From Eledone cirrhosa (Eukaryota): a DNA stretch of 64,000 nucleotides. The stretch is from positions 7,812,001 to 7,876,000 of the forward strand of contig OZ024761.1 in assembly GCA_964016885.1 (NCBI GenBank), given 5' to 3'. Below, in pieces: positions 1-36,030 of the stretch. The notes beneath the pieces are model-generated. The model had not been told where the DNA came from, ran no database searches, and was given only the letters and a program-made list of their open reading frames with translations. Position numbers and translations under genes: made by a program. Each line of letters opens with the position of its first letter. Position 1 is the first letter of the stretch.

Positions 1-3000
1 GTTCCAGTGTGTGTGCCAGTGTGTGTGCCAGTGTGTGTGCTAGTGTGTGTGCCAGTGTGTGTGCCAGTGTGTGTGCTAGTGTGTGTGCCAATGTGTGTTC
101 CAGTGTGTGTGCTAGTGTGTGTGCCAGTGTGTGTGCCAGTGTGTGTGCCAGTGTGTGTGCTAGTGTGTGTGCCAGTGTGTGTTCCAGTGTATGTGCTAGT
201 GTGTGTGCCAGTGTGTGTGCCAGTGTGTGTGCTAGTGTGTGTGCCAGTGTGTGTGCTAGTGTGTTCCAGTGTGTGTGCCAGTGTGTGTGCCAGTGTGTGT
301 ACTATTGTGTGTGCTAGTGTGTGTGCCAGTGTGTGTGCCAGTGTGTGTGCTAGTGTGAGTGTGCCACTGTGTGTGCGAGTGTGTGTGCCAGTGTGTGTGC
401 TAGTGTGTGTGTGCCAGTGTGTGTTCCAGTGTGTGTGCTAGTGTGTGTGCCAGTGTGTGTGCTAGTGTGTGTGCTAGTGTGTGTTCCAGTGTGTGTGCCA
501 GTGTGTGTGCCAGTGTGTGTGCCAGTGTGTGTGCCAGTGTGTGTGGTAGTGTGTGTGCCAGTGTGTGTGCTAGTGTGTGTGCTAGTGTGTGCTAGTGTGT
601 GTGCCAGTGTGTGTGCCAGTGTGTGTTCCAGTGTGTGTGCTAGTGTGTGTGCCAATGTGTGTGCCAGTGTGTGTGGTAGTGTGTGTGCCAGTGTGTGTGC
701 TAGTGTGTGTGCCAGTGTGTGTGCTAGTGTGTGTGCCAGTGTGTGTCAGTGTGTGTGCCAGTGTGTGTGCTAGTGTGTGTGTGCCAGTGTGTGTGCCAGT
801 GTGTGTGCCAGTGTGTGTGCCAGTGTGTGTGCTAGTGTGTGTGCCAGTGTGTGTGCTAGTGTGTGTGCCAGTGTGTGTGCTAGTGTGTGTGCCAGTGTGT
901 GTGCCAGTGTGTGCTAGTGTGTGTGCCAGTGTGTGTGCCAGTGTGTGTGCTAGTGTGTGTGCTAGTGTGTGTGCTAGTGTGTGTGCCAGTGTGTGCTAGT
1001 GTGTGTGCCAGTGTGTGTGCCAGTGTGTGTGCTAGTGTGTGTGCTAGTGTGTGTGCCAGTGTGTGTGCCAGTGTGTGTGCCACTGTGTGTGCCAGTGTGT
1101 GTGCCAGTGTGTGTGCCAGTGTGTGTGCTAGTGTGTGTGCCAGTGTGTGTGCTAGTGTGTGTGCCAGTGTGTGTGCCAGTGTGTGTGCTAGTGTGTGTGC
1201 CAGTGTGTGTGCCAGTGTGTGTGCTAGTGTGTGTGCCAGTGTGTGTGCCAGTGTGTGTGCCAGTGTGTGTGCCAGTGTGTGTGCCAGTGTGTGTGCTAGT
1301 GTGTGTGCTAGTGTGTGTGCCAGTGTGTGTGCCAGTGTGTGTGCTAGTGTGTGTGCCAGTGTGTGTGCCAGTGTGTGTGCCAGTGTGTGTGCCAGTGTGT
1401 GTGCTAGTGTGTGTGCCAGTGTGTGTGCTAGTGTGTGTGCCAGTGTGTGTGCCAGTGTATGTGCCAGTGTGTGCTAGTGTGTGTGCCAGTGTGTGTGCCA
1501 GTGTGTGTGCTAGTGTGTGTGCTAGTGTGTGTGCCAGTGTGTGTGCCAGTGTGTGTGCCAGTGTGTGTGCTAGTGTCTGTGCCACTGTGTGTGCCAGTGT
1601 GTGTGCCAGTGTGTGTGCCAGTGTGTGTGCTAGTGTGTGTGCCAGTGTGTGTGCTAGTGTGTGTGCCAGTGTGTGTGCTAGTGTGTGTGCCAGTGTGTGT
1701 GCCAGTGTGTGTGCCAGTGTGTGTACTATTGTGTGTGCTAGTGTGTGTGCCAGTGTGTGTGCTAGTGTGTGTGCTAGTGTGTGTGCCAGTGTGTGTGCCA
1801 GTGTGTGTACTATTGTGTGTGCCAGTGTGTGTGCTAGTGTGTGTGCTAGTGTGTGTGCCAGTGTGTGTGCCAGTGTGTGTACTATTGTGTGTGCTAGTGT
1901 GTGTGCCAGTGTGTGTGCCAGTGTGTGTACTATTGTGTGTGCTAGTGTGTGTGCCAGTGTGTGTGCCAGTGTGTGTACTATTGTGTGTGCTAGTGTGTGT
2001 GCTAGTGTCTGTGCCAGTGTGTGTGCCAGTGTGTGTGCTAATGTGTGTGCCAGTGTGTGTGCCACTGTGTGTGCCAGTGTGTGTGCTAGTGTGTGTGCCA
2101 GTGTGTGTGCTAGTGTGTGTACTAGTGTGTGTGCTAGTGTGTGTGCCAGTGTGTGTGCTAGTGTGTGTGTGCCAGTGTGTGTTCCAGTGTGTGTGCTAGT
2201 GTGTGTGTGCCAGTGTGTGTTCCAGTGTGTGTGCCAGTGTGTGTGCTAGTGAGTGTGCCAGTGTGTGTGCTAGTGTGTGTGCCAGTGTGTGTGCTAGTGT
2301 GTGTGCCAGTGTGTGTGCTAGTGTGTGTACCAGTGTGTGTGCCAGTGTGTGTGCCAGTGTGTGTGCCAGTGTGTGTGCTAGTGAGTGTGCCAGTGTGTGT
2401 GCTAGTGAGTGTGCCAGTGTGTGTGCTAGTGTATGTGCCAGTGTGTGTGCCAGTGTGTGTGCTAGTGAGTGTGCCAGTGTGTGTGCTAGTGTGTGTGCTA
2501 GTGTGTGTGCTAGTGTGTGTACCAGTGTGTGTGCCAGTGTGTGTTCCAGTGTGTGTGCCAGTGTGTGTGCCAGTGTGTGTGCTAGTGTGTGTGCCAGTGT
2601 GTGTGCCAGTGTGTGTGCTAGTGTGTGTGCCAATGTGTGTTCCAGTGTGTGTGCTAGTGTGTGTGCCAGTGTGTGTGCCAGTGTGTGTGCCAGTGTGTGT
2701 GCTAGTGTGTGTGCCAGTGTGTGTTCCAGTGTATGTGCTAGTGTGTGTGCCAGTGTGTGTGCCAGTGTGTGTGCTAGTGTGTGTGCCAGTGTGTGTGCTA
2801 GTGTGTTCCAGTGTGTGTGCCAGTGTGTGTGCCAGTGTGTGTACTATTGTGTGTGCTAGTGTGTGTGCCAGTGTGTGTGCCAGTGTGTGTGCTAGTGTGA
2901 GTGTGCCACTGTGTGTGCGAGTGTGTGTGCCAGTGTGTGTGCTAGTGTGTGTGTGCCAGTGTGTGTTCCAGTGTGTGTGCTAGTGTGTGTGCCAGTGTGT

Positions 3001-6000
3001 GTGCTAGTGTGTGTGCTAGTGTGTGTTCCAGTGTGTGTGCCAGTGTGTGTGCCAGTGTGTGTGCCAGTGTGTGTGCCAGTGTGTGTGCCAGTGTGTGTGC
3101 TAGTGTGTGTGCTAGTGTGTGCTAGTGTGTGTGCCAGTGTGTGTGCCAGTGTGTGTTCCAGTGTGTGTGCTAGTGTGTGTGCCAATGTGTGTGCCAGTGT
3201 GTGTGGTAGTGTGTGTGCCAGTGTGTGTGCTAGTGTGTGTGCTAGTGTGTGCTAGTGTGTGTTCCAGTGTGTGTGCCAGTGTGTGTGCTAGTGTGTGTGC
3301 TAGTGTGTGTGCCAGTGTGTGTCAGTGTGTGTGCCAGTGTGTGTGCTAGTGTGTGTGTGCCAGTGTGTGTTCCAGTGTGTGTGCTAGTGTGTGTGCCAGT
3401 GTGTGTGTCAGTGTGTGTGCCAGTGTGTGTGCCAGTGTGTGTGCCAGTGTGTGTGCCAGTGTGTGTGCCAGTGTGTGTGCCAGTGTGTGTGCCAGTGTGT
3501 GTGCCAGTGTGTGTACTATTGTGTGTGCTAGTGTGTGTGCCAGTGTGTGCCAGTGTGTGTGCTAGTGTGTGTGCTAGTGTGTGTGCCAGTGTGTGTGCCA
3601 GTGTGTGTGCCAGTGTGTGTGTCAGTGTGTGTGCTAGTGTGTGTGCCAGTGTGTGCCAGTGTGTGTGCCAGTGTGTGTGCTAGTGTGTGTGTGCCAGTGT
3701 GTGTTCCAGTGTGTGTGCTAGTGTGTGTGCCAGTGTGTGTGTCAGTGTGTGTGCTAGTGTGTGTGCCAGTGTGTGTGCCAGTGTGTGTGCTAGTGTGTGT
3801 GCCAGTGTGTGTGCCAGTGTGTGTGCCAGTGTGTGTGCCAGTGTGTGCTAGTGTGTGTGTGTGCCAGTGTGTGTTGCAGTGTGTGTGCTAGTGTGTGTGC
3901 CAGTGTGTGTGCCAGTGTGTGTGCTAGTGTGTGTGCCAGTGTGTGTGCTAGTGTGTGTGCCAGTGTGTGTGCCAGTGTGTGCTAGTGTGTGTGCCAGTGT
4001 GTGTGCTAGTGTGTGTGCCAGTGTGTGTGCCAGTGTGTGTGCTAGTGTGTGTGCCAGTGTGTGTGCTAGTGTGTGTGCCAGTGTGTGTGCCAGTGTGTGT
4101 GTCAGTGTGTGTGCTAGTGTGTGTGCCAGTGTGTGTGCCAGTGTGTGTGCCAGTGTGTGTGCCAGTGTGTGTGCCAGTGTGTGTGCTAGTGTGTGTGCCA
4201 GTGTGTGTGCTAGTGTGTGTGCCAGTGTGTGTGTCAGTGTGTGTGCCAGTGTGTGTGCCAGTGTGTGTGCCAGTGTGTGTGCGCCAGTGTGTGTGCCAGT
4301 GTGTGTGCTAGTGTGTGTACCAGTGTGTGTGCTAGTGTGTGTGCCAGTGTGTGTACTATTGTGTGTGCCAGTGTGTGTGCCAGTGTGTGTGCTAGTGTGT
4401 GTGCTAGTGTGTGTGCCAGTGTGTGTGCTAGTGTATGTGCCAGTGTGTGTGCCAGTGTGTGTGCCAGTGTGTGTGCCAGTGTGTGTGCTAGTGTGTGTGC
4501 CAGTGTGTGTGCCAGTGTGTGTGCTAGTGTGTGTGCCAGTGTGTGTGCTAGTGTGTGTGCCAGTGTGTGTACTAGTGTGTGTGCCAGTGTGTGTACTATT
4601 GTGTGTGCTAGTGTGTGTGCTAGTGTGTGTGCCAGTGTGTGTGCCAGTGTGTGTGCCAGTGTGTGTGCCAGTGTGTGTGCCAGTGTGTGTGCCAGTGTGT
4701 GTGCCAGTGTGTGTGCTAGTGTGTGTGCCAGTGTGTGTGCCAGTGTGTGTGCTAGTGTGTGTGCCAGTGTGTGTGCTAGTGTGTGTGCCAGTGTGTGTAC
4801 TATTGTGTGTGCTAGTGTGTGTGCCAGTGTGTGTGCTAGTGTGTGTGCTAGTGTGTGTGCCAGTGTATGTGCCAGTGTGTGCTAGTGTGTGTGCCAGTGT
4901 GTGTGCCAGTGTGTGTGCCAGTGTGTGTGCCAGTGTGTGTGCCAGTGTGTGTGCCAGTGTGTGTGCCAGTGTATGTGCTAGTGTGTGTGCCAGTGTGTGT
5001 GCTAGTGTGTGTGCCAGTGTATGTGCTAGTGTGTGTGCCAGTGTGTGTGCCAGTGTGTGTACTATTGTGTGTGCCAGTGTGTGTGCTAGTGTGTGTGCCA
5101 GTGTGTGTGCTAGTGTGTGTGCTAGTGTGTGCCAGTGTGTGTGCCAGTGTGTGTGCTAGTGTGTGTGTTCCAGTGTATGTGCTAGTGTGTGTGCCAGTGT
5201 GTGTGCCAGTGTGTGTGCCAGTGTGTGTGCCAGTGTGTGTGCCAGTGTGTGTGCCATTGTGTGTACTATTGTGTGTGCTAGTGTGTGTGCCAGTGTGTGT
5301 GCTAGTGTGTGTGCCAGTGTGTGTGCCAGTGTGTGTGTGCCAGTGTGTGTGCCAGTGTGTGTGCTAGTGTGTGTGTGCCAGTGTGTGTTCCAGTGTGTGT
5401 GCTAGTGTGTGTGCCAGTGTGTGTGCTAGTGTGTGTGCCAGTGTGTATGCTAGTGTGTGCTAGTGTGTGTGCTAGTGTGTGTGCTAGTGTGTGTGCCAGT
5501 GTGTGTGCCAGTGTGTGTGCCAGTGTGTGTGCTAGTGTGTGTGCCAGTGTGTGTGTGCTAGTGTGTGTGCCAGTGTGTGTGCTAGTGTGTGTGCTAGTGT
5601 GTGTGCCAGTGTGTGTGCCAGTGTGTGTGCTAGTGTCTGTGCCAGTGTGTGTGCTAGTGTGTGTGCCAGTGTGTGTGCCACTGTGTGTGCTAGTGTGTGT
5701 GTGCCAGTGTGTGTTCCAGTGTGTGTGCTAGTGTGTGTGCCAGTGTGTGCCAGTGTGTGTGCCAGTGTGTGTGCCAGTGTGTGTGCTAGTGTGTGTGCCA
5801 GTGTGTGTGTGCCAGTGTGTGTGTGCTAGTGTGTGTGCTAGTGTGTGTGCCAGTGTGTGTGCCAGTGTGTGTGCTAGTGTGTGTGCCAGTGTGTGTGTGC
5901 CAGTGTGTGTGCCAGTGTGTGCTAGTGTGTGTGCCAGTGTGTGTGCCAGTGTGTGTGCTAGTGTGTGTGCTAGTGTGTGTGCCAGTGTGTGCTAGTGTGT

Positions 6001-6760
6001 GTGCCAGTGTGTGTGCTAGTGTGTGTGCCAGTGTGTGTGTGCCAGTGTGTGTGCCAGTGTGTGTGCTAGTGTGTGTGCTAGTGTGTGTGCCAGTGTGTGT
6101 GTGCCAGTGTGTGTGCCAGTGTGTGTGTGCCAGTGTGTGTGCTAGTGTGTGTGCCAGTGTGTGTGTGCCAGTGTGTGTGTGCCAGTGTGTGTGCCAGTGT
6201 GTGTGCCAGTGTGTGTGCCAGTGTGTGTGCTAGTGTGTGTGCCAGTGTGTGTGTGCCAGTGTGTGTGCCAGTGTGTGTGCCAGTGTGTGTGTGCCAGTGT
6301 GTGTGCCAGTGTGTGTGCTAGTGTATGTGCCAGTGTGTGCTAGTGTGTGTGCTAGTGTGTGTACCAGTGTGTGCTAGTGTGTGTGTGCCAGTGTGTGTGC
6401 TAGTGTATGTGCTAGTGTGTGTGCCAGTGTGTGTGCCAGTGTGTGTGCCAGTGTGTGTGCTAGTGTATGTGCTAGTGTGTGTGCCAGTGTGTGTGCCAGT
6501 GTGTGTGCCAGTGTGTGTGCTAGTGTATGTGCTAGTGTGTGTGCCAGTGTGTGTGCTAGTGTATGTGCCATTGTGTGCCAGTGTGTGTGCCAGTGTGTGT
6601 GCCAGTGTGAGTGCTAGTGTATGTGCCAGTGTGTGCTAGTGTGTGTACCAGTGTGTGTACTATTGTGTGTACCAGTGTGTGTGCTAGTGTGTGTGTGCCA
6701 GTGTGTGTGCTAGTGTGTGTGTGCCAGTGTGTGTGCTAGTGTGTGTGCCAGTGTGTGTGT
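1..6760. repeat. 12-bp satellite (GTGTGTGTGCCA / GTGTGTGTGCTA)n, truncated by the window start
   Basis: Continuous 12-bp periodicity. The CVPV/CASV/HTLA ORFs are its translations. Confidence 0.98.
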
Positions 6761-11064: not shown

Positions 11065-11171
11065 ATATATATATATATATATATGTAAAGTTATATTTAA
11101 AATTGTTGGGTTACAACTAGTAAATATTTATAACTGATATAAAAGCACTCGACAAATACTTGGAGTATATT

Positions 11172-11531
11172 TACAATATTAAATAAATGGAAAACTATAT
11201 TTATAAAACCATATTTATTTCATTATATATATTTCGGGGATATCATATTAACAATATGCTATGCCTTCATCAGACAAAATACAATATAAACAGTTTTATA
11301 GATAAATATATTCGACATACCGTAATAAACATCAACTTCATTTGACTGTTAGAGTGAACCTCTTCAAATGAAGTTGATGTTTATTACGGTATGTCGAATA
11401 TATTTATCTATAAAACTGTTTATATTGTATTTTGTCTGATGAAGGCATAGCATATTGTTAATACGATATCCCCGAAATATATATAATGAAATAAATATGG
11501 TTTTATAAATATAGTTTTCCATTTATTTAAT

Positions 11532-11537
<6 letters not shown>
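11172..11537. mobile_element. Palindromic element (~174-bp arms, 18-bp spacer) with a hammerhead in each arm
   Basis: 11172-11345 is the reverse complement of 11364-11537, followed by (TA)n. Confidence 0.9.
11429..11492 (+). ncRNA. Minimal type-I hammerhead ribozyme (mirror copy at 11217-11280, minus strand)
   Basis: attttgt-CTGATGA-[imperfect stem II]-GAAA-t(atat)a-TA^-atgaaat. Stem I is 7 bp and AATAAA follows. Confidence 0.75.
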
Positions 11538-11623
<86 letters not shown>

Positions 11624-16120: not shown

Positions 16121-16550
16121 ACACACACACACACACACATATACATATAAATAAATAAAGGAAAACGATGACACACACACGTTCACAGACACACACAGAC
16201 AGGTATTTGCACACACATACACATATACAGACGGACATTTGCACATACACACACACACACACACAGATGGACATTTGCACACACAATTAATTTATGAGAC
16301 AGATACAGCGTGAACTTCATAAAAGATTCTAAAACCTACCGCCCTCACCCCCACACAATGAATGTATGAGACATATCCAACATAAATTTGATAAAAGTCT
16401 CCAAAGTCACCAACCCCCTCCCTCACACACATACACATAAAATTACAACATTTATACAAATACTTACACACACACACGTACACACACATAGACACGCATA
16501 GACACAATACATACGAGCACATACAACTCTTATAAACACACATACAGATA

Positions 16551-19262
16551 GAAGCACTCTACATCCAGACAGGGCTGGTGGTACCATATAGGCAGCTGTC
16601 TATATGGTACCACACAGGCCCTACATATAGAAGCACTCTACATCCAGACAGGGCTTGTGGTACCATATAGGCAGCTGTCTATATGGTACCACAGGCCCTA
16701 CATATAGAAGCACTCTACATCCAGACAGGGCTGGTTGTACTATATAGGCAGCTGTCTATATGGTACCACAGGGCCTACATATAGAAGCACTCTACACCCA
16801 GACAGGGCTGGTGGTACCATATAGGCAGCTGTCTATATGGTACCACAGGCCCTACATATATAAGCACTCTACATCCAGGGCTGGTGGTACTATATAGGCA
16901 GCTGTCTATATGGTACCACAGGCCCTACATATAAAAGCACTCTACATCCAGACAGGGCCTGTGGTACTATATAGGCAGCTGTCTATATGGTACCACAGGC
17001 CCTACATATAGAAGCACTCTACAGCCAGACAGGGCTGGTTGTACTATATAGGCAGCTGTCTATATGGTACCACAGGCCCTACATATAGAAGCACTCTACA
17101 TCCAGACAGGGCTGGTTGTACTATATAGGCAGCTGTCTATATGGTACCACAGGCCCTACATATAAAAGCACTCTACATCCAGACAGGGCTGGTTGTACTA
17201 TATAGGCAGCTGTCTATATGGTACCACAGGCTCTACATATAAAAGCACTCTACAGCCAGACAGGGCTGGTTGTACTATATAGGCAGCTGTCTATATGGTA
17301 CCACAGGCCCTACATATAAAAGCACTCTACATCCAGGGCCGGTGGTGCCATATAGGCAGCTGTCTATATGGTACCACAGGCCCTACATATAGAAGCACTC
17401 TACATCCAGACAGGGCTTGTGGTACCATATAGGCAGCTGTCTATATGGTACCACAGGCCCTACATATAGAAGCACTCTACACCCAGACAGGGCTGGTGGT
17501 ACTATATAGGCAGCTGTCTATATGGTACCACAGGGCCTACATATAGAAGCACTCTACACCCAGACAGGGCTGGTGGTACTATATAGGCAGCTGTCTATAT
17601 GGTACCACAGGCCCTGTCTGGCTGTAGAGTGCTTCTATATGTAGGGCCTATGGTACCATATAGGCAGCTGCCTATATGGTACCACAGGCCCTACATATAG
17701 AAGCACTCTACATCCAGACAGGGCTGGTGGTACTATATAGGCAGCTGTCTATATGGTACCACAGGCCCTACATATAGAAGCACTCTACAGCCAGACAGGG
17801 CCTGTGGTACTATATAGGCAGCTGTCTATATGGTACCACAGGCCCTACATATAGAAGCACTCTACAGCCAGACAGGGCCTGTGGTACTATATAGGCAGCT
17901 GTCTATATGGTACCACAGGCCCTACATATAGAAGCACTCTACAGCCAGACAGGGCTGGTTGTACTATATAGGCAGCTGTCTATATGGTACCACAGGCCCT
18001 ACATATATAAGCACTCTACATCCAGGGCTGGTGGTACTATATAGGCAGCTGTCTATATGGTACCACAGGCCCTACATATAAAAGCACTCTACATCCAGAC
18101 AGGGCTGGTGGTACTATATAGGCAGCTGTCTATATGGTACCACAGGCCCTACATATAGAAGCACTCTACAGCCAGACAGGGCTGGTGGTACTATATAGGC
18201 AGCTGCCTATATGGTACCACAGGCCCTACATATAGAAGCACTCTACAGCCAGACAGGGCTGGTTGTACTATATAGGCAGCTGTCTATATGGTACCACAGG
18301 CCCTACATATAAAAGCACTCTACAGCCAGACAGGGCCTGTGGTACTATATAGGCAGCTGTCTATATGGTACCACAGGCCCTACATATAGAAGCACTCTAC
18401 AGCCAGACAGGGCTGGTGGTACTATATAGGCAGCTGTCTATATGGTACCACAGGCCCTACATATAGAAGCACTCTACATCCAGACAGGGCTGGTTGTACT
18501 ATATAGGCAGCTGTCTATATGGTACCACAGGCCCTACATATAAAAGCACTCTACAGCCAGACAGGGCCTGTGGTACTATATAGGCAGCTGTCTATATGGT
18601 ACCACAGGCCCTACATATAGAAGCACTCTACAGCCAGACAGGGCTGGTTGTACTATATAGGCAGCTGTCTATATGGTACCACAGGCCCTACATATAGAAG
18701 CACTCTACATCCAGACAGGGCTGGTTGTACTATATAGGCAGCTGTCTATATGGTACCACAGGCCCTACATATAAAAGCACTCTACATCCAGGGCCGGTGG
18801 TGCCATATAGGCAGCTGTCTATATGGTACCACAGGCTCTACATATAGAAGCACTCTACAGCCAGACAGGGCTGGTTGTACTATATAGGCAGCTGTCTATA
18901 TAGTACCACTGGCTCTACATATAAAAGCACTCTACAGCCAGACAGGGCCGGTGGTACGATATAGGCTGCTGTCTATATGGTACCACAGGCCCTACATATA
19001 AAAGCACTCTACAGACAGGGCCAGTGGTGCCATATAGGCTGCTGTCTATATGGTACCACAGGCCCTACATATAAAAGCACTCTACAGACAGGGCCAGTGG
19101 TGCCATATAGGCTGCTGTCTATATGGTACCCCCGGCCCTACATATAAAAGCACTCTACAGACAGGGCCAGTGGTGCCATATAGGCTGCTGTCTATATGGT
19201 ACCACCGGCCCTACATATAAAAGCACTCTACAGACAGGGCCAGTGGTGCCATATAGGCTGCT
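16551..19262. repeat. ~77-bp minisatellite (~35 units), each a ~52-bp palindrome plus a constant spacer
   Basis: agggcctgtggtaccatatag-gcagctgt-ctatatggtaccacaggccct + acatatagaagcactctacatccagac. Confidence 0.97.
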
Positions 19263-19980
19263 GTGCTGATTTCGGGGGGGGGGGGGGGCACATCTCTCCA
19301 AATCAACAATTTTGGAAAATAAATAAATAAATTTCAGTTTTATTGAGGGTCGTTGGTTTATTTCATACAGGGTGTTGAGGAGGTCCAAAGGGGGAGCTTG
19401 GGCCTAAGGGGTAGTGGTGGTGGTGGTGGTGGTGGTAAAGAAAATGTTGCTATAACACTGAGGATCCTTCTCACATCTCCAGTATCAGTGGAAAGTGGTG
19501 AGCATAGTTTCTCAAAGCTCAAGCTTATAAAATCTTACATTCACTCTAGAATGTTGCAAGAGAGACTGGCTTGGCAACTATATCAATTGAATATTCTCAG
19601 GCTTCATCACTTGGTTTAGCTGAATTGGTTAAAAACTTTGCTGAGAAAAAGGGACACCAAGTGAGATTTTGAATTGTCTTTCTGTCTGCATTATCCCCTC
19701 AGCCAAATTTGGTTTCAGGTGTATTAGTATTGAGGGTTCAATTGTCTGTTATGTTGTTAGTTTATCACTAATGTCTATCTTTATGTTTGTTTACTCTTGT
19801 CTTAATTTTGCAAATAAAATAGTATCAAATGGTGCTTTTTTAGGGGCTGTCTGGACATTTGAGTTCAGAAAGGTAATCTTTTTAAAATTTATTGTTTATA
19901 AATTTTTAAATTTATAATTTCCTGTGGGGAGAGCTGTCAGAATCTAACCTGGGGTGCCAGATAATCTAGCACTGGCCCTG
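19235..19980 (+). mobile_element. Internally deleted hAT transposon with a C-terminal dimerisation-domain remnant
   Basis: NVAITLRILLTSPVSVESGEHSFSKLKLIKSYIHSRMLQERL at 19442-19567. TIRs are cagggccagtg / cactggccctg. Confidence 0.88.
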
Positions 19981-23361: not shown

Positions 23362-24634
23362 TATAATAATAATAATGAAATATTGTGTACAGTGCTCAGG
23401 TGCACTACAACTCATCAAAAGTGTATGTATAGTACATAGGGTAATGTACAAACATCAGGAAAATGAACAGTGCATGAGTCATGATATACACATGTGTGCA
23501 TGTGTATGGAAGGGGGACATCAGGTGTAGTTTTGGCGTATTTCGGGAAGCATGAGCGTTTTAAAGGATGCAGTGTCTCAGCAGCTAACAACTGACGCAGG
23601 GAGTTTGTTCCATGGAGGTTTTAAAGGATGCAGTGTCTCGGCAGCTAACAACTGATGCAGGGAGTTTGTTCCATGGAGGTTTTAAAAGATGCAGTGTCTC
23701 GGCAGCTAACAACTGACACAGGGAGTTTGTTCCATGGAGGTTTTAAAGGATGCAGTGTCTCGGCAGCTAACAACTGATGCATGCAGTTTGTTCCATGGAG
23801 GTTTTAAAGGATGCAGTGTCTCGACAGCTGAGAACTGACGCAGGCAGTTTGTTCCATGGAGGTTTTAAAGGATGCAGTGTCTCAGCAGCTAACAACTGAC
23901 ACAGGGAGTTTGTTCCATGGAGGTTTTAAAGGATGCAGTGTCTCGGCAGCTAACAACTGATGCATGCAGTTTGTTCCATGGAGGTTTTAAAGGATGCAGT
24001 GTCTCGACAGCTGAGAACTGACGCAGGCAGTTTGTTCCATGGAGGTTTTAAAGGATGCAGTGTCTCAGCAGCTAACAACTGACGCAGGTAGTTTGTTCCA
24101 TGGAGGTTTTAAAGGATGCAGTGCATCGGCAGCTAACAACTGACGCAGGCAGTTTGTTCCATGGAGGTTTTAAAGGATGCAGTGTCTCGACAGCTGAGAA
24201 CTGACGCAGGCAGTTTGTTCCATGGAGGTTTTAAAGGATGCAGTGTCTCAGCAGCTAACAACTGACGCAGGTAGTTTGTTCCATGGAGGTTTTAAAGGAT
24301 GCAGTGCATCGGCAGCTAACAACTGACGCAGGCAGTTTGTTCCATGGAGGTTTTAAAGGATGCAGTGTCTCGACAGCTGAGAACTGACGCAGGCAGTTTG
24401 TTCCATGGAGGTTTTAAAGGATGCAGTGTTTCGACAGCTAACAACTGATGCAGGTAGTTTGTTCCATGGAGGTTTTAAAGGATGCAGTGTCTCGACAGCT
24501 AACAACTGATGCAATCAGTTTGTTCCATGCTTCAGCAACTCTGAGCGTGAAAAAATGTTTACAAAAGTCATGGGAGCTGTGCTGTTTTCTGACTCTGTAG
24601 GCATGTCCACGTGTGTTAGACACATGGAGATCAA
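23362..24634 (-). mobile_element. CR1-group LINE 3' end containing an expanded 61-bp array (~16 units, 23558-24528)
   Basis: TRGHAYRVRKQHSSHDFCKHFFTLRVAEAWNKL is a CR1 C-terminus. The unit occurs once in the 9.3-kb copy. Confidence 0.92.
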
Positions 24635-26176: not shown

Positions 26177-26652
26177 CATCATCATCATCATCATCATTTC
26201 ATTTTACGTCCGCTTTTTCCCTGCTTGCAAGGGTGGGACGGGAACTGATACTGGCTTGATTTCTACAGCTGGATGCCCTTCCTAACACCAACCTCATTTA
26301 CAGTGAGTGCTGGGTGCTTTTTTGCCGTGTCACCTCCACGACCACTTTGCAGTGGAATGATAGGGACCCCAGTCCCTATCATCTCATTTCTACAGCTGGA
26401 TGCCCTTCCTAACGCCAACCTCATTTACAGTGAGTGCTGGGTGCTTTTTTGCCGTGGTACCTCCACGACCACTTTGCAGTGGAATGATAGGGACCCCAGT
26501 CCCTATCATCTCATTTCTACAGCTGAGTAAACTGGAGCAATGTGAAATAAAGTGTTTTGCTCAAGGAAACAACACATCACCCGGTCTGAGAATTGAACTC
26601 ACAACCTTTCGATTGCAAGGCCAATGCTCTAACCACTAAGCCACGTGCCTCC
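26177..26652 (-). mobile_element. SINE family A, full length with an internal ~127-bp duplication
   Basis: tRNA head at 26652. The ggatgcccttcctaac block is present twice. Confidence 0.9.
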
Positions 26653-27787: not shown

Positions 27788-28397
27788 CAAGGGTGGGACG
27801 GGAACTGATTCTGGCTTGATTTCTACAGCTGGATGCCCTTCCTAACACCAACCACATTTACAGTGAGTGCTGGGTGCTTTTTTGCCGTGGCACCTCCACG
27901 ACCACTTTACAGTGTGGGCTGGGTGCTTTTTTGCCGTGGCACCTCCACGACCACTTTATAGTGTGGGGTGGGTGCTTTTTTGCCGTGGTGCCTCCACGTC
28001 CACTTTACAGTGTGGGCTGGGTGCTTTTTTTCCGTGGCGTCTACACGTCCACTTTACAGTGTGGGCTGGGTGCTTTTTTTTCCGTGGCGCCTACACGTCC
28101 ACTTTACAGTGTGGGCTGGGTGCTTTTTTGCCGTGGCACCTCCACGACCACTTTACAGTGTGGGCTGGGTGCTTTTTTGCCGTGGCACCTCCACGACCAC
28201 TCTACAGTGGAATGATATGGACCCCAGTCTATCATTCCACTGCAAAGTGGTCGTGGAGGTGCCACAGCAAAAAAGCACCCAGCACTCACTGTAAATGAGG
28301 TTGGTGTTAGGAAGGGCATCCAGCTGTAGAAATTAAGCCAGAATCAGTTCCCGTCCCACCCTTGCAAGCAGGGAAAAGAGGACGTAAAATGAAATGA
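27788..28397. mobile_element. Two inverted SINE-A 3' parts enclosing a ~49-bp tandem expansion
   Basis: 27788-27910 is complementary to ~28240-28365. There are about 7 units of cactttacagtgtgggctgggtgcttttttgccgtggcacctccacgac. Confidence 0.88.
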
Positions 28398-28441: not shown

Positions 28442-30240
28442 GTATTGTTATAGTTTTGTAGGGTCATACTACCAATAAAAAAACACACACCAGTTGAGTT
28501 TCACTTCAGTTTATTACGAATTGAGTAACTAATCCATTCATAGGTTAGTTTAGTAACGGGATGGTTGTATAATTGTTAATTTCAAAGGTCTGTCATCACA
28601 CATCCTGTGACCTTCTCAATCACTGTTTTCATTACACCGTGTCTTCTTTTGTTCTGTTTTATTCCATCTTCATGTAGCAGTTGACGGCCTTCATCTATTA
28701 CCTGTATGACATTGAAGATGGAGTAAAATAGAACAAAGAGGAGACAGTTATTGAGGTGACAGGATGTATGACAAGAGAGGAGACAGTTATTGACAAGGTG
28801 ACAGGATGTATGACAAGAGAGGAGACAGATATTGACAAGGTGACAGGATGTATGACAAGAGAGGAGACAGTTATTGACAAGGTGACAGGATGTATGACAA
28901 GAGAGGGGACAGTTATTGACAAGGTGACAGGATGTATGACAAGAGAGGAGACAGTTATTGACAAGGTGACAGGATGTATGACAAGAAAGGAGACAGTTAT
29001 TGACAAGGTGACAGGATGTATGACAAGAGAGGAGACAGTTATTGACAAGGTGACAGGATGTATGACAAGAGAGGGGACAGTTATTGACAAGGTGACAGGA
29101 TGTATGACAAGAGAGGAGACAGTTATTGACAAGGTGACAGGATGTATGACAAGAAAGGAGACAGTTATTGACAAGGTGACAGGATGTATGACAAGAGAGG
29201 GGACAGTTATTGACAAGGTGACAGGATGTATGACAAGAAAGGAGACAGTTATTGACAAGGTGACAGGATGTATGACAAGAGAGGAGACAGTTATTGACAA
29301 GGTGACAGGATGTATGACAAGAGAGGAGACAGTTATTGACAAGGTGACAGGATGTATAACAAGAGAGGAGACAGTTATTGACAAGGTGACAGGATGTATG
29401 ACAAAAGAGGAGACAGTTATTGACAAGGTGACAGGATGTATGACAAAAGAGGAGACAGTTATTGACAAGGTGACAGGATGTATGACAAAAGAGGAGACAG
29501 TTATTGACAAGGTGACAGGATGTATGACAAGAGAGGGGACAGTTATTGACAAGGTGACAGGATGTATGACAAGAAAGGAGACAGTTATTGACAAGGTGAC
29601 AGGATGTATGACAAGAAAGGAGACAGTTATTGACAAGGTGACAGGATGTATGACAAAAGAGGAGACAGTTATTGACAAGGTGACAGGATGTATGACAAGA
29701 AAGGAGACAGTTATTGACAAGGTGACAGGATGTATGACAAGAGAGGAGACAGTTATTGACAAGGTGACAGGATGTATGACAAGAGAGGAGACAGTTATTG
29801 ACAAGGTGACAGGATGTATGACAAGAAAGGAGACAGTTATTGACAAGGTGACAGGATGTATGACAAGAAAGGAGACAGTTATTGACAAGGTGACAGGATG
29901 TATGACAAAAGAGGAGACAGGATGTATGACAAGAAAGGAGACAGTTATTGACAAGGTGACAGGATGTATGACAAGAGAGGAGACAGTTATTGACAAGGTG
30001 ACAGGATGTATGACAAGAGAGGAGACAGTTATTGACAAGGTGACAGGATGTATGACAAAAGAGGAGACAGTTATTGACAAGGTGACACGATGTATGACAA
30101 AAGAGCTCTGACAATTAAACTGGAAATTAACAACCACCCCATGAATGGATTAGTCACTCAAGTAATAATAAACTGGAGTGAAACTAAACTAGTGCCTGTG
30201 TTTTTATTGGCAGCATGACCCTACCAAACTATAATAATAT
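28442..30240. mobile_element. Inverted-repeat-bounded Penelope-like terminal-repeat derivative enclosing a 42-bp array
   Basis: 28442-28541 is an imperfect reverse complement of 30142-30239. Both resemble 43819-43884 and 48345-48377 (atgaccct..caa.gtataacaatat). Confidence 0.7.
28737..30112 (+). repeat. 42-bp minisatellite (~32 units)
   Basis: Unit gaggagacagttattgacaaggtgacaggatgtatgacaaga. Confidence 0.98.
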
Positions 30241-30442
30241 CTATTTCAACACACTATTTCACATGAAGAATATTGCAAAACAAATAGAAAAATGAAGTAT
30301 ATCATCATCATTATCATCATCATTTAACGTCTTCCACGCTAGCATGGGTTAGACGGGAATTGTCCCACTTGAGGCAAGATTGATTGAGTGACCATTTCTT
30401 GCTCGTATAGGACTGTCTGGCAGGAAGTATATATATATATAT

Positions 30443-34899: not shown

Positions 34900-36030
34900 A
34901 TGTAAGTGCCCACAAAATACTAACTCTTTCAATTGCGCAGAGGGTTCTATAGAAATAGTGGACAGCTTCTGTTACCTGGGTGACAAAATCAGCAGTGGGG
35001 GAGGGTGCTCTGAAAGTACAGTAGCTAGAGTCAGAACTGGATGGAAAAAGTTCAGAGAGCTTATACCACTATTAGCTGCTAAAGGGTTCTCCCTAAAAAT
35101 GAAAGGCAGGTGGTATGATGCCTGCATACGAACAGCAATGTTGCATGGCAGTGAGACCTGGGCATTGTGTGCAGAGGATATACGCAGACTAGAGAGGAAC
35201 GAAGCTTGCATGCTCCGCTGGATGTGTAATAGTAATATATGTGAACGGCAAAGCATAAATGAACTAAGGAAAAAATTAGAAATAAGAGGGATCAGATGTT
35301 GTTTACTCGAGAGAAGGCTATGTTGGTATGGTCACGTGATGCGCATGAAAGACGACAGCTGTATAACAAAGTGCAGGGCAATAAAGATAGATGGTAGCCA
35401 CGGAGTAGGCAGACCCAGGAAAACCTGGGACGAGCTGATAAATTCCGACCTCACACACTTACACCTCTCCAAGACAATGTCACTGGACCGAGACCTTTGG
35501 TGGTACTCAGTAACAGAGAAGACCCGCCTTACCTAAATACAAAGTAAAACCTACTAGTCAGTAGGCATCTCTAACAAAATACACCCCCGTCCCACCCCAT
35601 CCACACCGCCCCCTTCAATGCAAAGTTATGTTGGTGCCACAGCATCCAGGCCGAAACAAACGAGATCGTGTAGGTGTCACGACAAAAAAACACACAGTCC
35701 ACGCTGTAACGTGACCGTGTAGGCAACACGGTAAAAACCTCCCAGTCCCACACTGTAAATGTGGTTGGTGTTAGGAAGGGCATCCAGCTGTAGAAAACAC
35801 GCCAGACAGTCCACGCTGTAATGTGGCCGTGTAGGCAACACGGTAAAAACCTCCCAGCCCCACACTGTAAATTTGGTTGGTGTTAGGAAGGGCATCCAGC
35901 TGTAGAAAACCCGCCAGACAGTCCTATGCGAGCAAGACAACCACTCTTGCCTCAAGTGGGAAAACCCCCGTCCAAACCCATGTAAGCGTGGAACAGGGAC
36001 GTTAAACGATGATGATGATGATGATGATGA
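34900..36030 (+). mobile_element. Second, 5'-truncated RTE copy with 3' UTR and (GAT)n tail
   Basis: EIVDSFCYLGDKISSGGGCSES...MLHGSETW...WYGHVMRM...GRPRKTW. Confidence 0.94.

What the first reader, a model, noticed from the sequence alone, without database searches (positions are those of the whole stretch)
28442..30240. 42-bp minisatellite appears to be an amplified hammerhead fragment
Seen: the unit cagtta-TTGACAA-ggtgaca-ggatg-tatgac-aaga aligns with the 43690 hammerhead cagtca-CTGAAGA-ggtcaca-gagtg-tgtgac-GAAA. The last unit continues AAAA-gagc-TC-tgac, completing a degenerate ribozyme (30070-30112). A mirror copy (TTGAGAA-ggtcaca-ggatg-tgtgat-GACA-gacc-TT) lies on minus at 28580-28625, and the whole block is bounded by inverted repeats of the 43.8/48.3-kb family. 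Inference: the satellite arose from a ribozyme-bearing terminal repeat. The units lack GAAA and the cleavage site, so they are probably inactive.
Basis: partly seen in the sequence, partly recalled or inferred. Interest (0 to 1): 0.7.

Follow-up and report, generated by a model that had tools for sequence, protein, structure and literature searches.

The report
Minisatellite born in dead Penelope ribozyme
A 42-base piece of the self-cutting RNA motif at the end of an old Penelope-type jumping gene is repeated 33 times in a row at one spot, likely by ordinary copying slippage after the motif had already been broken, so it is probably an ordinary transposon-derived repeat and not a working ribozyme system.

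Summary
The array has 33 units (30 of exactly 42 bp) and sits in the right arm of a head-to-head pair of Penelope-like element (PLE) terminal repeats (pLTRs). The unit is homologous to that family's minimal hammerhead (0 of 2000 shuffles score as well). The same ribozyme has 18,285 exact genomic matches and lies just downstream of RT/GIY-YIG ORFs. Three corrections. TTGACAA is not decay: it keeps the U3-A8 core of an old subfamily, a variant already published for PLEs. The right arm runs on to 30301. The 48.3-kb copy is only a distant relative. All units carry G12A, and no 42-bp unit has more than 4 of 6 stem II pairs; inner units lack the cleavage site. The units differ by 2.6% and the arms by about 26%, so amplification likely came after the ribozyme died, starting at a flanking AAAGAG repeat. 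The array is single-locus; four junction searches found no other such tandem; a sister copy grew a minisatellite from a non-ribozyme part. It is not a retrozyme. The scan had noted retrozyme-type arrays elsewhere in this genome, but nothing like this stretch. Ordinary.

The parts
28442..28672 (-). Left (inverted, tail-less) pLTR arm of an old PLE subfamily
   Evidence: nhmmer E 7e-57 over 28653-28442 with a profile built from other loci; 74% identical to the right arm; inner end pairs with 28713-28737 at 92%
28581..28625 (-). Decayed minimal type I hammerhead of the left arm: U3-A8 core, stem II 6/6 pairs, GAAA changed to GACA, stem I broken
28673..28712 (.). 40-nt spacer between the head-to-head arms; origin not determined
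   Evidence: inverted pair I1
28713..28739 (+). 5' start of the right arm; about 17 nt of the family sequence between GAGGAGACA and stem I are missing here, which sets the unit at 42 bp
   Evidence: sequence against subfamily majority; deletion size read by eye
28735..28740 (+). 5' copy of the AAAGAG direct repeat that flanks the array
   Evidence: 1365 nt to the 3' copy = 39 + 30x42 + 24 + 42
28740..30105 (+). 42-bp minisatellite, 33 units: stem I 5' strand, core 1 (TTGACAA), broken stem II, core 2 as AAGA (24 of 30) or AAAA (6 of 30); mean pairwise difference 2.6%
29913..29936 (+). 24-nt unit: 18-nt deletion between two GACAG words
30068..30112 (+). Terminal unit completing the only full hammerhead of the arm: stem I 4 pairs, U3-A8, stem II 4/6, G12A, GAGC, UC cleavage position
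   Evidence: does not fold as a hammerhead, z +0.8
30100..30105 (+). 3' copy of the AAAGAG direct repeat
30113..30240 (+). Rest of the right pLTR, to the conserved ATGACCC...TATAACAAT-type end
   Evidence: nhmmer E 3e-62 for 30068-30301
30241..30301 (+).
   Evidence: one-ended tails are described for PLEs
43649..43885 (+). Solo pLTR of the younger sister subfamily with an intact C3-G8 minimal hammerhead at 43689-43733
   Evidence: nhmmer E 9e-38; folds stems I and II; 18,285 genomic pattern matches
48100..48377 (+). pLTR of a more distant PLE family, hammerhead with different but fully paired stem II; only its 3' end matches this subfamily
   Evidence: PLE ORF remnant upstream at 47383-47856, 59% identity, E 2e-54

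Best explanation
This is a single-locus 42-bp minisatellite made of the 5' part of the hammerhead motif in the terminal repeat of an old Penelope-like retrotransposon copy, likely started by replication slippage or unequal repair at a short flanking AAAGAG repeat after the ribozyme had already been broken, and predicted to have no catalytic activity. Steps: (1) a PLE of an old U3-A8 subfamily left a head-to-head pair of truncated pLTRs with a tail on one arm (layout shown; insertion mechanism from the literature); (2) both arms decayed; the right arm lost about 17 nt upstream of stem I, two stem II pairs, and G12, which lies in a CpG and reads A in 11 of 32 sister copies (shown; deamination inferred); (3) the segment between two AAAGAG words 42 nt apart was duplicated (repeat shown; mechanism inferred); (4) the duplicate expanded locally and recently to 33 units, with small internal deletions (shown as a pattern; mechanism inferred). 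The ribozyme is the raw material, not the engine.
For: Homology: 0 of 2000 shuffles; a profile built without this locus finds the array's units at E 4e-4 to 2e-2 and both arms at E<1e-56. Host is a PLE: 25 of 119 loci have RT/linker/GIY-YIG motifs upstream of the same hammerhead on the same strand, 23 with the GIY-YIG motif 430-580 bp away; a 919-aa ORF at L158 with weak RVT_1 (E 9e-4) and GIY-YIG (E 2e-4) Pfam hits. Dead before amplification: first and last units and all 42-nt units share A12 and the stem II mismatches; units differ by 2.6%, arms by about 26%; G12A slows a hammerhead >500-fold to about 10^6-fold (PMC2553840). Local origin: AAAGAG at both boundaries; one candidate locus in 3.0 Gb. 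No pull towards the ribozyme: junction searches gave 0, 5 (control 4), 1 (control 0) and 6 off-array (control 3) hits, none a tandem hammerhead on inspection; a sister copy has a 41-bp x 6 array from the non-ribozyme 3' end (L025); three other arrays in this window derive from a dispersed repeat.
Against: Concerted evolution could have swept the inactivating changes through an older array, so 'dead before the first duplication' is inferred from the edge units, not shown. A 6-nt repeat is short and such words are common in A/G-rich DNA; no chance control was run for it. The genome searches were exact patterns for four gap or junction layouts and a word-seeded DNA search, so arrays grown from other decayed copies would be missed. 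None of 45 downstream-anchored old-subfamily loci (6 duplicates) has an ORF hit within 1.5 kb; the link to an ORF rests on the sister subfamily and on 5 of 30 U3-A8-selected loci. Both Pfam hits are below the curated cut-offs. No empty or single-unit orthologue was seen.
Confidence: 0.86

Rival explanations
1. A degenerate non-LTR retrozyme: a minimal hammerhead unit was multiplied through RNA (rolling circle or repeated reverse transcription by the PLE enzyme) and inserted as a multimer, then decayed.
For: Retrozymes are tandem hammerhead repeats linked to pLTRs, with family consensus lengths down to 51 bp (bioRxiv 10.64898/2026.07.22.740005). The array lies inside a two-armed PLE layout, and earlier scan notes describe retrozyme-type arrays in this genome (not checked here).
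Against: Inner units lack the stem III 3' half, the cleavage site and the stem I 3' strand, so no unit could be cut out. All share the same killing changes and are far younger than the insertion. Single locus. The left arm has one copy only. No intact short tandem among 18,285 intact motifs.
Confidence: 0.05
2. The array is kept as a multivalent 'enzyme strand': each unit spans stem I arm, core 1, stem II, core 2 and stem III arm, the half of a trans-acting hammerhead, and could bind or slowly cut PLE transcripts, or feed small RNAs against them.
For: The unit boundaries match the enzyme half closely, and the U3-A8 pair and a 4-bp stem I arm are retained. PLE minimal hammerheads are proposed to work as dimers (PMC4209133).
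Against: G12A in all units, A14G in 24 of 30, stem II 4/6 with folding energy 0. A unit dimer folds no better than shuffles, z -0.02. Pairing arms are only about 4 nt. The boundaries are explained by the AAAGAG repeat.
Confidence: 0.03
3. The array is partly an assembly artefact (an over-expanded or mis-joined repeat).
For: The unique flanks were not covered at 93% likeness in the four public runs laid.
Against: Seven distinct 42-nt variants occur in a non-random order. A 72-nt contig of the unit, one difference, stands at depth 35 and 107 in runs X1 and X2, where other listed contigs have about 3-16; both runs are one sample, which may be the assembly's source.
Confidence: 0.05

Closest known systems
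Transposon-derived minisatellites (Ahmed and Liang 2012, PMC3389668: abstract and passages read; Jurka and Gentles 2006 as cited there, not read)
   Same: Short head-to-tail array grown locally from part of a TE, single locus, flanked by a short direct repeat; 23% of human minisatellites are TE-derived and most clusters are single-locus.
   Different: The source segment is a ribozyme motif in a PLE terminal repeat; my searches listed no paper whose title or abstract start describes such a case.
Minimal hammerheads of metazoan Penelope-like elements (Cervera and de la Pena 2014, PMC4209133: parts 1-2 of 4 read)
   Same: Long helix II, 4-5-bp helix I, extra base between 9 and 10.1, palindromic 15.2-16.2, pairs on opposite strands 100-700 bp apart, U3-A8 variant.
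   Different: Here one arm's motif is fragmentarily repeated 33 times and carries G12A; the paper concerns single or paired motifs, and the parts read name no cephalopod.
PLE insertion structure, Neptune/Nematis-type EN+ clades (Craig et al. 2021, PMC8557442: 12 passages read)
   Same: Inverted 5'-truncated copy, one-ended tail, hammerhead in the pLTR, RT then GIY-YIG, C-X4-C-XX-C linker (CIDKKCITC in L158), (TA)n flanks in many copies.
   Different: Tail is about 60 nt against 30-40 described; the clade was not fixed by phylogeny.
Metazoan non-LTR retrozymes (PMC7229834: 12 passages; bioRxiv 10.64898/2026.07.22.740005: parts 1-2 of 5)
   Same: Tandem DNA repeat related to a type I hammerhead and to pLTRs.
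   Different: Retrozyme units are mostly 150-450 bp, each with a complete ribozyme, dispersed and expressed as circles; this unit is 42 bp, incomplete, mutated and single-locus.

Membership tests
TE-derived minisatellite | Head-to-tail units of 10-100 bp at high identity | tested here: met
   42 bp, 33 units, 2.6% mean difference
TE-derived minisatellite | Unit homologous to, and embedded in, a dispersed TE | tested here: met
   0 of 2000 shuffles; continuous with both pLTR flanks
TE-derived minisatellite | Short direct repeat at the array boundaries | tested here: met
   AAAGAG at 28735 and 30100; no chance control
TE-derived minisatellite | Length polymorphism or a single-unit ancestral allele | not testable with these tools
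   No relatives held; collapsed contigs give no length
PLE pseudo-LTR (host element) | Terminal repeat directly downstream of an RT + GIY-YIG ORF | tested here: met
   25 of 119 loci, ORF L158; shown in the sister subfamily and in L095 and L101 (U3-A8), not at this locus
PLE pseudo-LTR (host element) | Inverted truncated copy and one-ended tail | tested here: met
PLE pseudo-LTR (host element) | Clade (Neptune or Nematis) by RT phylogeny | not tested
   Only the C-X4-C-XX-C linker was seen
Minimal type I hammerhead (parent motif in the family) | Core boxes, 3-8 pair, paired stems I and II | tested here: met
   43689 copy folds stems I and II; 48151 copy has different but fully paired stem II; old subfamily majority U3-A8
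Active hammerhead (array units) | G12, A13, A14 in register after a closed stem II | tested here: not met
   0 of 30 units; AAGA 24, AAAA 6; stem II 4/6
Active hammerhead (array units) | NUH cleavage site with stem I 3' strand | tested here: not met
   Present only after the terminal unit
Non-LTR retrozyme | [quoted passage not shown] | tested here: not met
   criterion
Non-LTR retrozyme | Dispersed copies of the unit | tested here: not met
   One candidate locus; 18 of 24 junction hits are this array, the other 6 unrelated
Non-LTR retrozyme | Expression as linear and circular RNA | not testable with these tools
   No RNA holder listed

The most novel reading that the evidence does not exclude
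The array is a natural multimer of the 'enzyme strand' of a U3-A8 hammerhead: a transcript would present 32 enzyme halves that bind Penelope RNAs as catalytically dead decoys (or cut them very slowly in trans), a host repeat made from a transposon's own ribozyme and turned against one of the genome's most abundant elements.
Probability: 0.03. Interest if true: 0.75.

Novelty: new member of a known kind. Interest (0 to 1): 0.25.

Why it matters
Modestly. It is a clean, readable case of minisatellite birth: the source element, the flanking repeat, the order of decay and expansion, and sister copies for comparison are all visible. It also marks a boundary for retrozyme surveys: a tandem repeat with hammerhead homology need not be RNA-amplified. 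The larger by-product is the parent family, over 18,000 exact minimal hammerheads in one genome with an old U3-A8 / U3-G8 subfamily, which offers material to test core compensation in a natural series.

Tried and rejected
Rfam scan of the window: no hammerhead family among the 150 listed of 183 matches, nearly all microRNA models on AT repeats. Genome-wide 3-8 covariation count (U3-A8 51, U3-G8 296, C3-A8 192 of 18,285) is about 11 times the independence expectation, but I reject it as proof of selection because an old subfamily with fixed U3 confounds it. Independent tandem hammerheads: four junction patterns, all hits unrelated on inspection. An out-of-register hammerhead using the GAAA found in 8 of 30 units: rejected, it needs two extra bases after stem II, and the dimer does not fold. 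A 510-codon open frame on the minus strand through the array: a consequence of a stop-free 14-codon unit, no sign of a gene. Close kinship with 48100-48377: not above chance. Public runs: no RNA holder listed; DNA runs hold family copies but no piece spanning this locus. One search used a wrong frame for tblastn and two wrong offsets; one search corrected these, and its stem I column is off-register, so stem I pairs are taken or read by hand. A look-up of earlier findings by sequence found nothing.

Full report
Setting. The window is G000:C22:7812001-7876000 in a 3.0-Gb assembly. It looks octopus-like; that label is recalled from its repeat types and echoed by an earlier scan note, not tested. 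The window is crowded with tandem arrays (110 rows).

Observation. The array spans 28740-30105 and has 33 pieces: a 39-nt first unit, 30 units of 42 nt, a 24-nt unit at 29913 and a terminal unit that runs into the flank. The 30 full units fall into 7 variants with 5 variable columns and differ by 2.6% on average. The stretch 28443-28626 is inverted against 30067-30239 (74%, E 3e-31), and both match 43809-43885 at 84-85%. The arms' inner ends (28648-28672, 28713-28737) are 92% complementary around a 40-nt spacer. A two-unit stretch aligns with 43640-43885 better than 1998 of 2000 dinucleotide shuffles, and with the majority line of the element's own subfamily (31 segments from 28 other loci) better than all 2000. 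Against 48100-48377 it is at chance level. A profile built from those other loci finds the right arm at 30068-30301 (E 3e-62), the left arm (E 7e-57), the 43.7-kb copy (E 9e-38), only the 3' end of the 48.3-kb copy (E 2e-6), and the array units one by one (E 4e-4 to 2e-2).

The host element. A pattern for the hammerhead has 18,285 exact matches in the genome and 0 in the reversed control. In 25 of 119 fetched loci, RT, linker or GIY-YIG motifs lie upstream on the same strand; 23 have the GIY-YIG motif 430-580 bp before the ribozyme. L158 holds a 919-aa open frame with weak RVT_1 and GIY-YIG Pfam hits, both under the curated cut-offs, and a C-X4-C-XX-C linker of the kind Craig et al. tie to Neptune PLEs (PMC8557442, passages). 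That paper describes the inverted truncated copy and the one-ended tail seen here; the tail extends the right arm to 30301. tblastn found ORF remnants in 17 of 30 loci of the young set, 13 of 29 of the U3-G8 set, 5 of 30 of the U3-A8 set, and 0 of 45 downstream-anchored old-subfamily loci (6 of them duplicates). So this copy is an ORF-less remnant of an old subfamily. In a tree of 84 pLTRs built without the first core box, one well-supported branch (100/99) separates 27 long-branched rows, including both window arms and no C3-G8 row, from 57 rows holding all 35 C3-G8 rows. The sample was enriched for U3 rows by design and the bootstrap had not settled.

The ribozyme. The motif fits the minimal type I hammerhead of metazoan PLEs: long helix II, short helix I, an extra base between 9 and 10.1, a short palindromic helix III, and pairs on opposite strands (PMC4209133, parts 1-2 of 4). 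Among 32 copies collected by the downstream sequence only (several poorly aligned rows were left in), 24 have U3, 19 have A8 and 10 have G8; U3-A8 is the commonest pair (14), C3-G8 occurs once. The same paper reports U3-A8 in Schistosoma PLEs. So TTGACAA in the unit is an inherited, valid core. The units are dead for other reasons. Position 12 is A in all units; it lies in a CpG and reads A in 11 of 32 sister copies. G12A slows hammerheads from >500-fold to about 10^6-fold (PMC2553840, passages). Position 14 is G in 24 of 30 units, stem II keeps 4 of 6 pairs with folding energy 0, and only the terminal unit is followed by a cleavage site and the stem I partner. The 43.7-kb copy folds stems I and II; the terminal unit and a unit dimer do not (z +0.8 and -0.02). 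The left arm has GACA for GAAA and a broken stem I.

Mechanism. AAAGAG stands at both boundaries (28735-28740, 30100-30105), 1365 nt apart, exactly the sum of the units. The family majority already has this word upstream and downstream of the ribozyme, and a deletion of about 17 nt in this copy brought the two to 42 nt. The first and last units share the killing changes with the inner units, and unit divergence (2.6%) is a tenth of arm divergence (about 26%). The likely order is insertion, decay, duplication at the short repeat, local expansion. The order is inferred; homogenisation of an older array is not excluded. Short flanking repeats and single-locus growth are described for TE-derived minisatellites, 23% of human ones (PMC3389668, abstract and passages).

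Is the ribozyme special? The unit has one candidate locus in the genome (a word-seeded search, so a lower bound). Four junction patterns for other tandem hammerheads gave 0 hits, 5 against a control of 4, 1 against 0 and 6 off-array against 3; none was a tandem hammerhead on inspection. Among 226 pLTR hits in 139 fetched loci, the one array of five or more copies (L025, 41 bp x 6) comes from the 3' end and tail, not the ribozyme. The 49-, 112- and 127-bp arrays of this window match a dispersed repeat in 29-37 fetched loci. Minisatellite birth inside old repeats is thus common here.

Reality of the array. A 72-nt contig of the unit stands at depth 35 and 107 in two runs of one sample, against about 3-16 for other listed contigs; it is absent from the other two runs laid, and the unique flanks were not covered. 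That sample may be the assembly's source.

Comparison. It works like any TE-derived minisatellite and meets the three features I could test. It fails three retrozyme features (complete ribozyme per unit, two consecutive complete units, dispersal; criteria from bioRxiv 10.64898/2026.07.22.740005, parts 1-2 of 5, and PMC7229834, passages). Searches for hammerhead + minisatellite + Penelope and for Penelope-derived satellites listed nothing whose title or abstract start describes a hammerhead-fragment minisatellite; subscription journals are largely missing from that library, and I read no supplements, where lists of short arrays could stand. Earlier scan notes on retrozyme-type arrays in this genome were not checked; a look-up by this sequence found nothing.

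Verdict. Observation confirmed, interpretation supported with corrections, biology ordinary. New member of a known kind; interest 0.25.

Noticed in passing
G000 old pLTR subfamily (L002-L030, L141-L157): U3 is near-fixed while position 8 is A (19 of 32) or G (10 of 32); no C3-G8 row lies in the old clade of the tree. May record a C3-G8, U3-G8, U3-A8 series among master copies; direction and selection not shown.
   Followed up: partly
L025:1278-1529 (G000:C19): Independent 41/46-bp x 6 minisatellite grown from the 3' end and tail of the same pLTR subfamily.
   Followed up: yes
L158:857-3613 (-): 919-aa open PLE frame (RT, C-X4-C-XX-C linker, GIY-YIG) preceded by a 369-aa frame and by partial tandem or inverted copies; a young, possibly intact element.
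   Followed up: partly
window 11166-11543 and 42228-43071: Near-perfect palindromes (99% and 100%) with a CTGATGA...GAAA hammerhead-like motif in each arm; a similar motif at 51389 (-). Probably young head-to-head pLTR pairs of other PLE families.
   Followed up: no
window 47383-47856 (+): Broken PLE ORF remnant, 59% identical to the L053 protein, upstream of the 48.1-kb pLTR.
   Followed up: partly
window 46680 (-), 159-codon frame: Reads like another PLE protein fragment (resemblance recalled, no call tested it).
   Followed up: no
window 26259-26525, 27851-28209, 35694-35924, 63829-63934: 127-, 49-, 112- and 48-bp arrays; the first three were shown to match one dispersed repeat found in 29-37 fetched loci.
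   Followed up: partly
window 38724, 44642, 49087 (+), 9296 (-): Further CTGATGA...GAAA core matches; stems not examined.
   Followed up: no
window 4-6759, 54949-60597, 16543-19264, 23557-24529: Large 12-, 10-, 77- and 61-bp satellites; the region is unusually rich in arrays.
   Followed up: no
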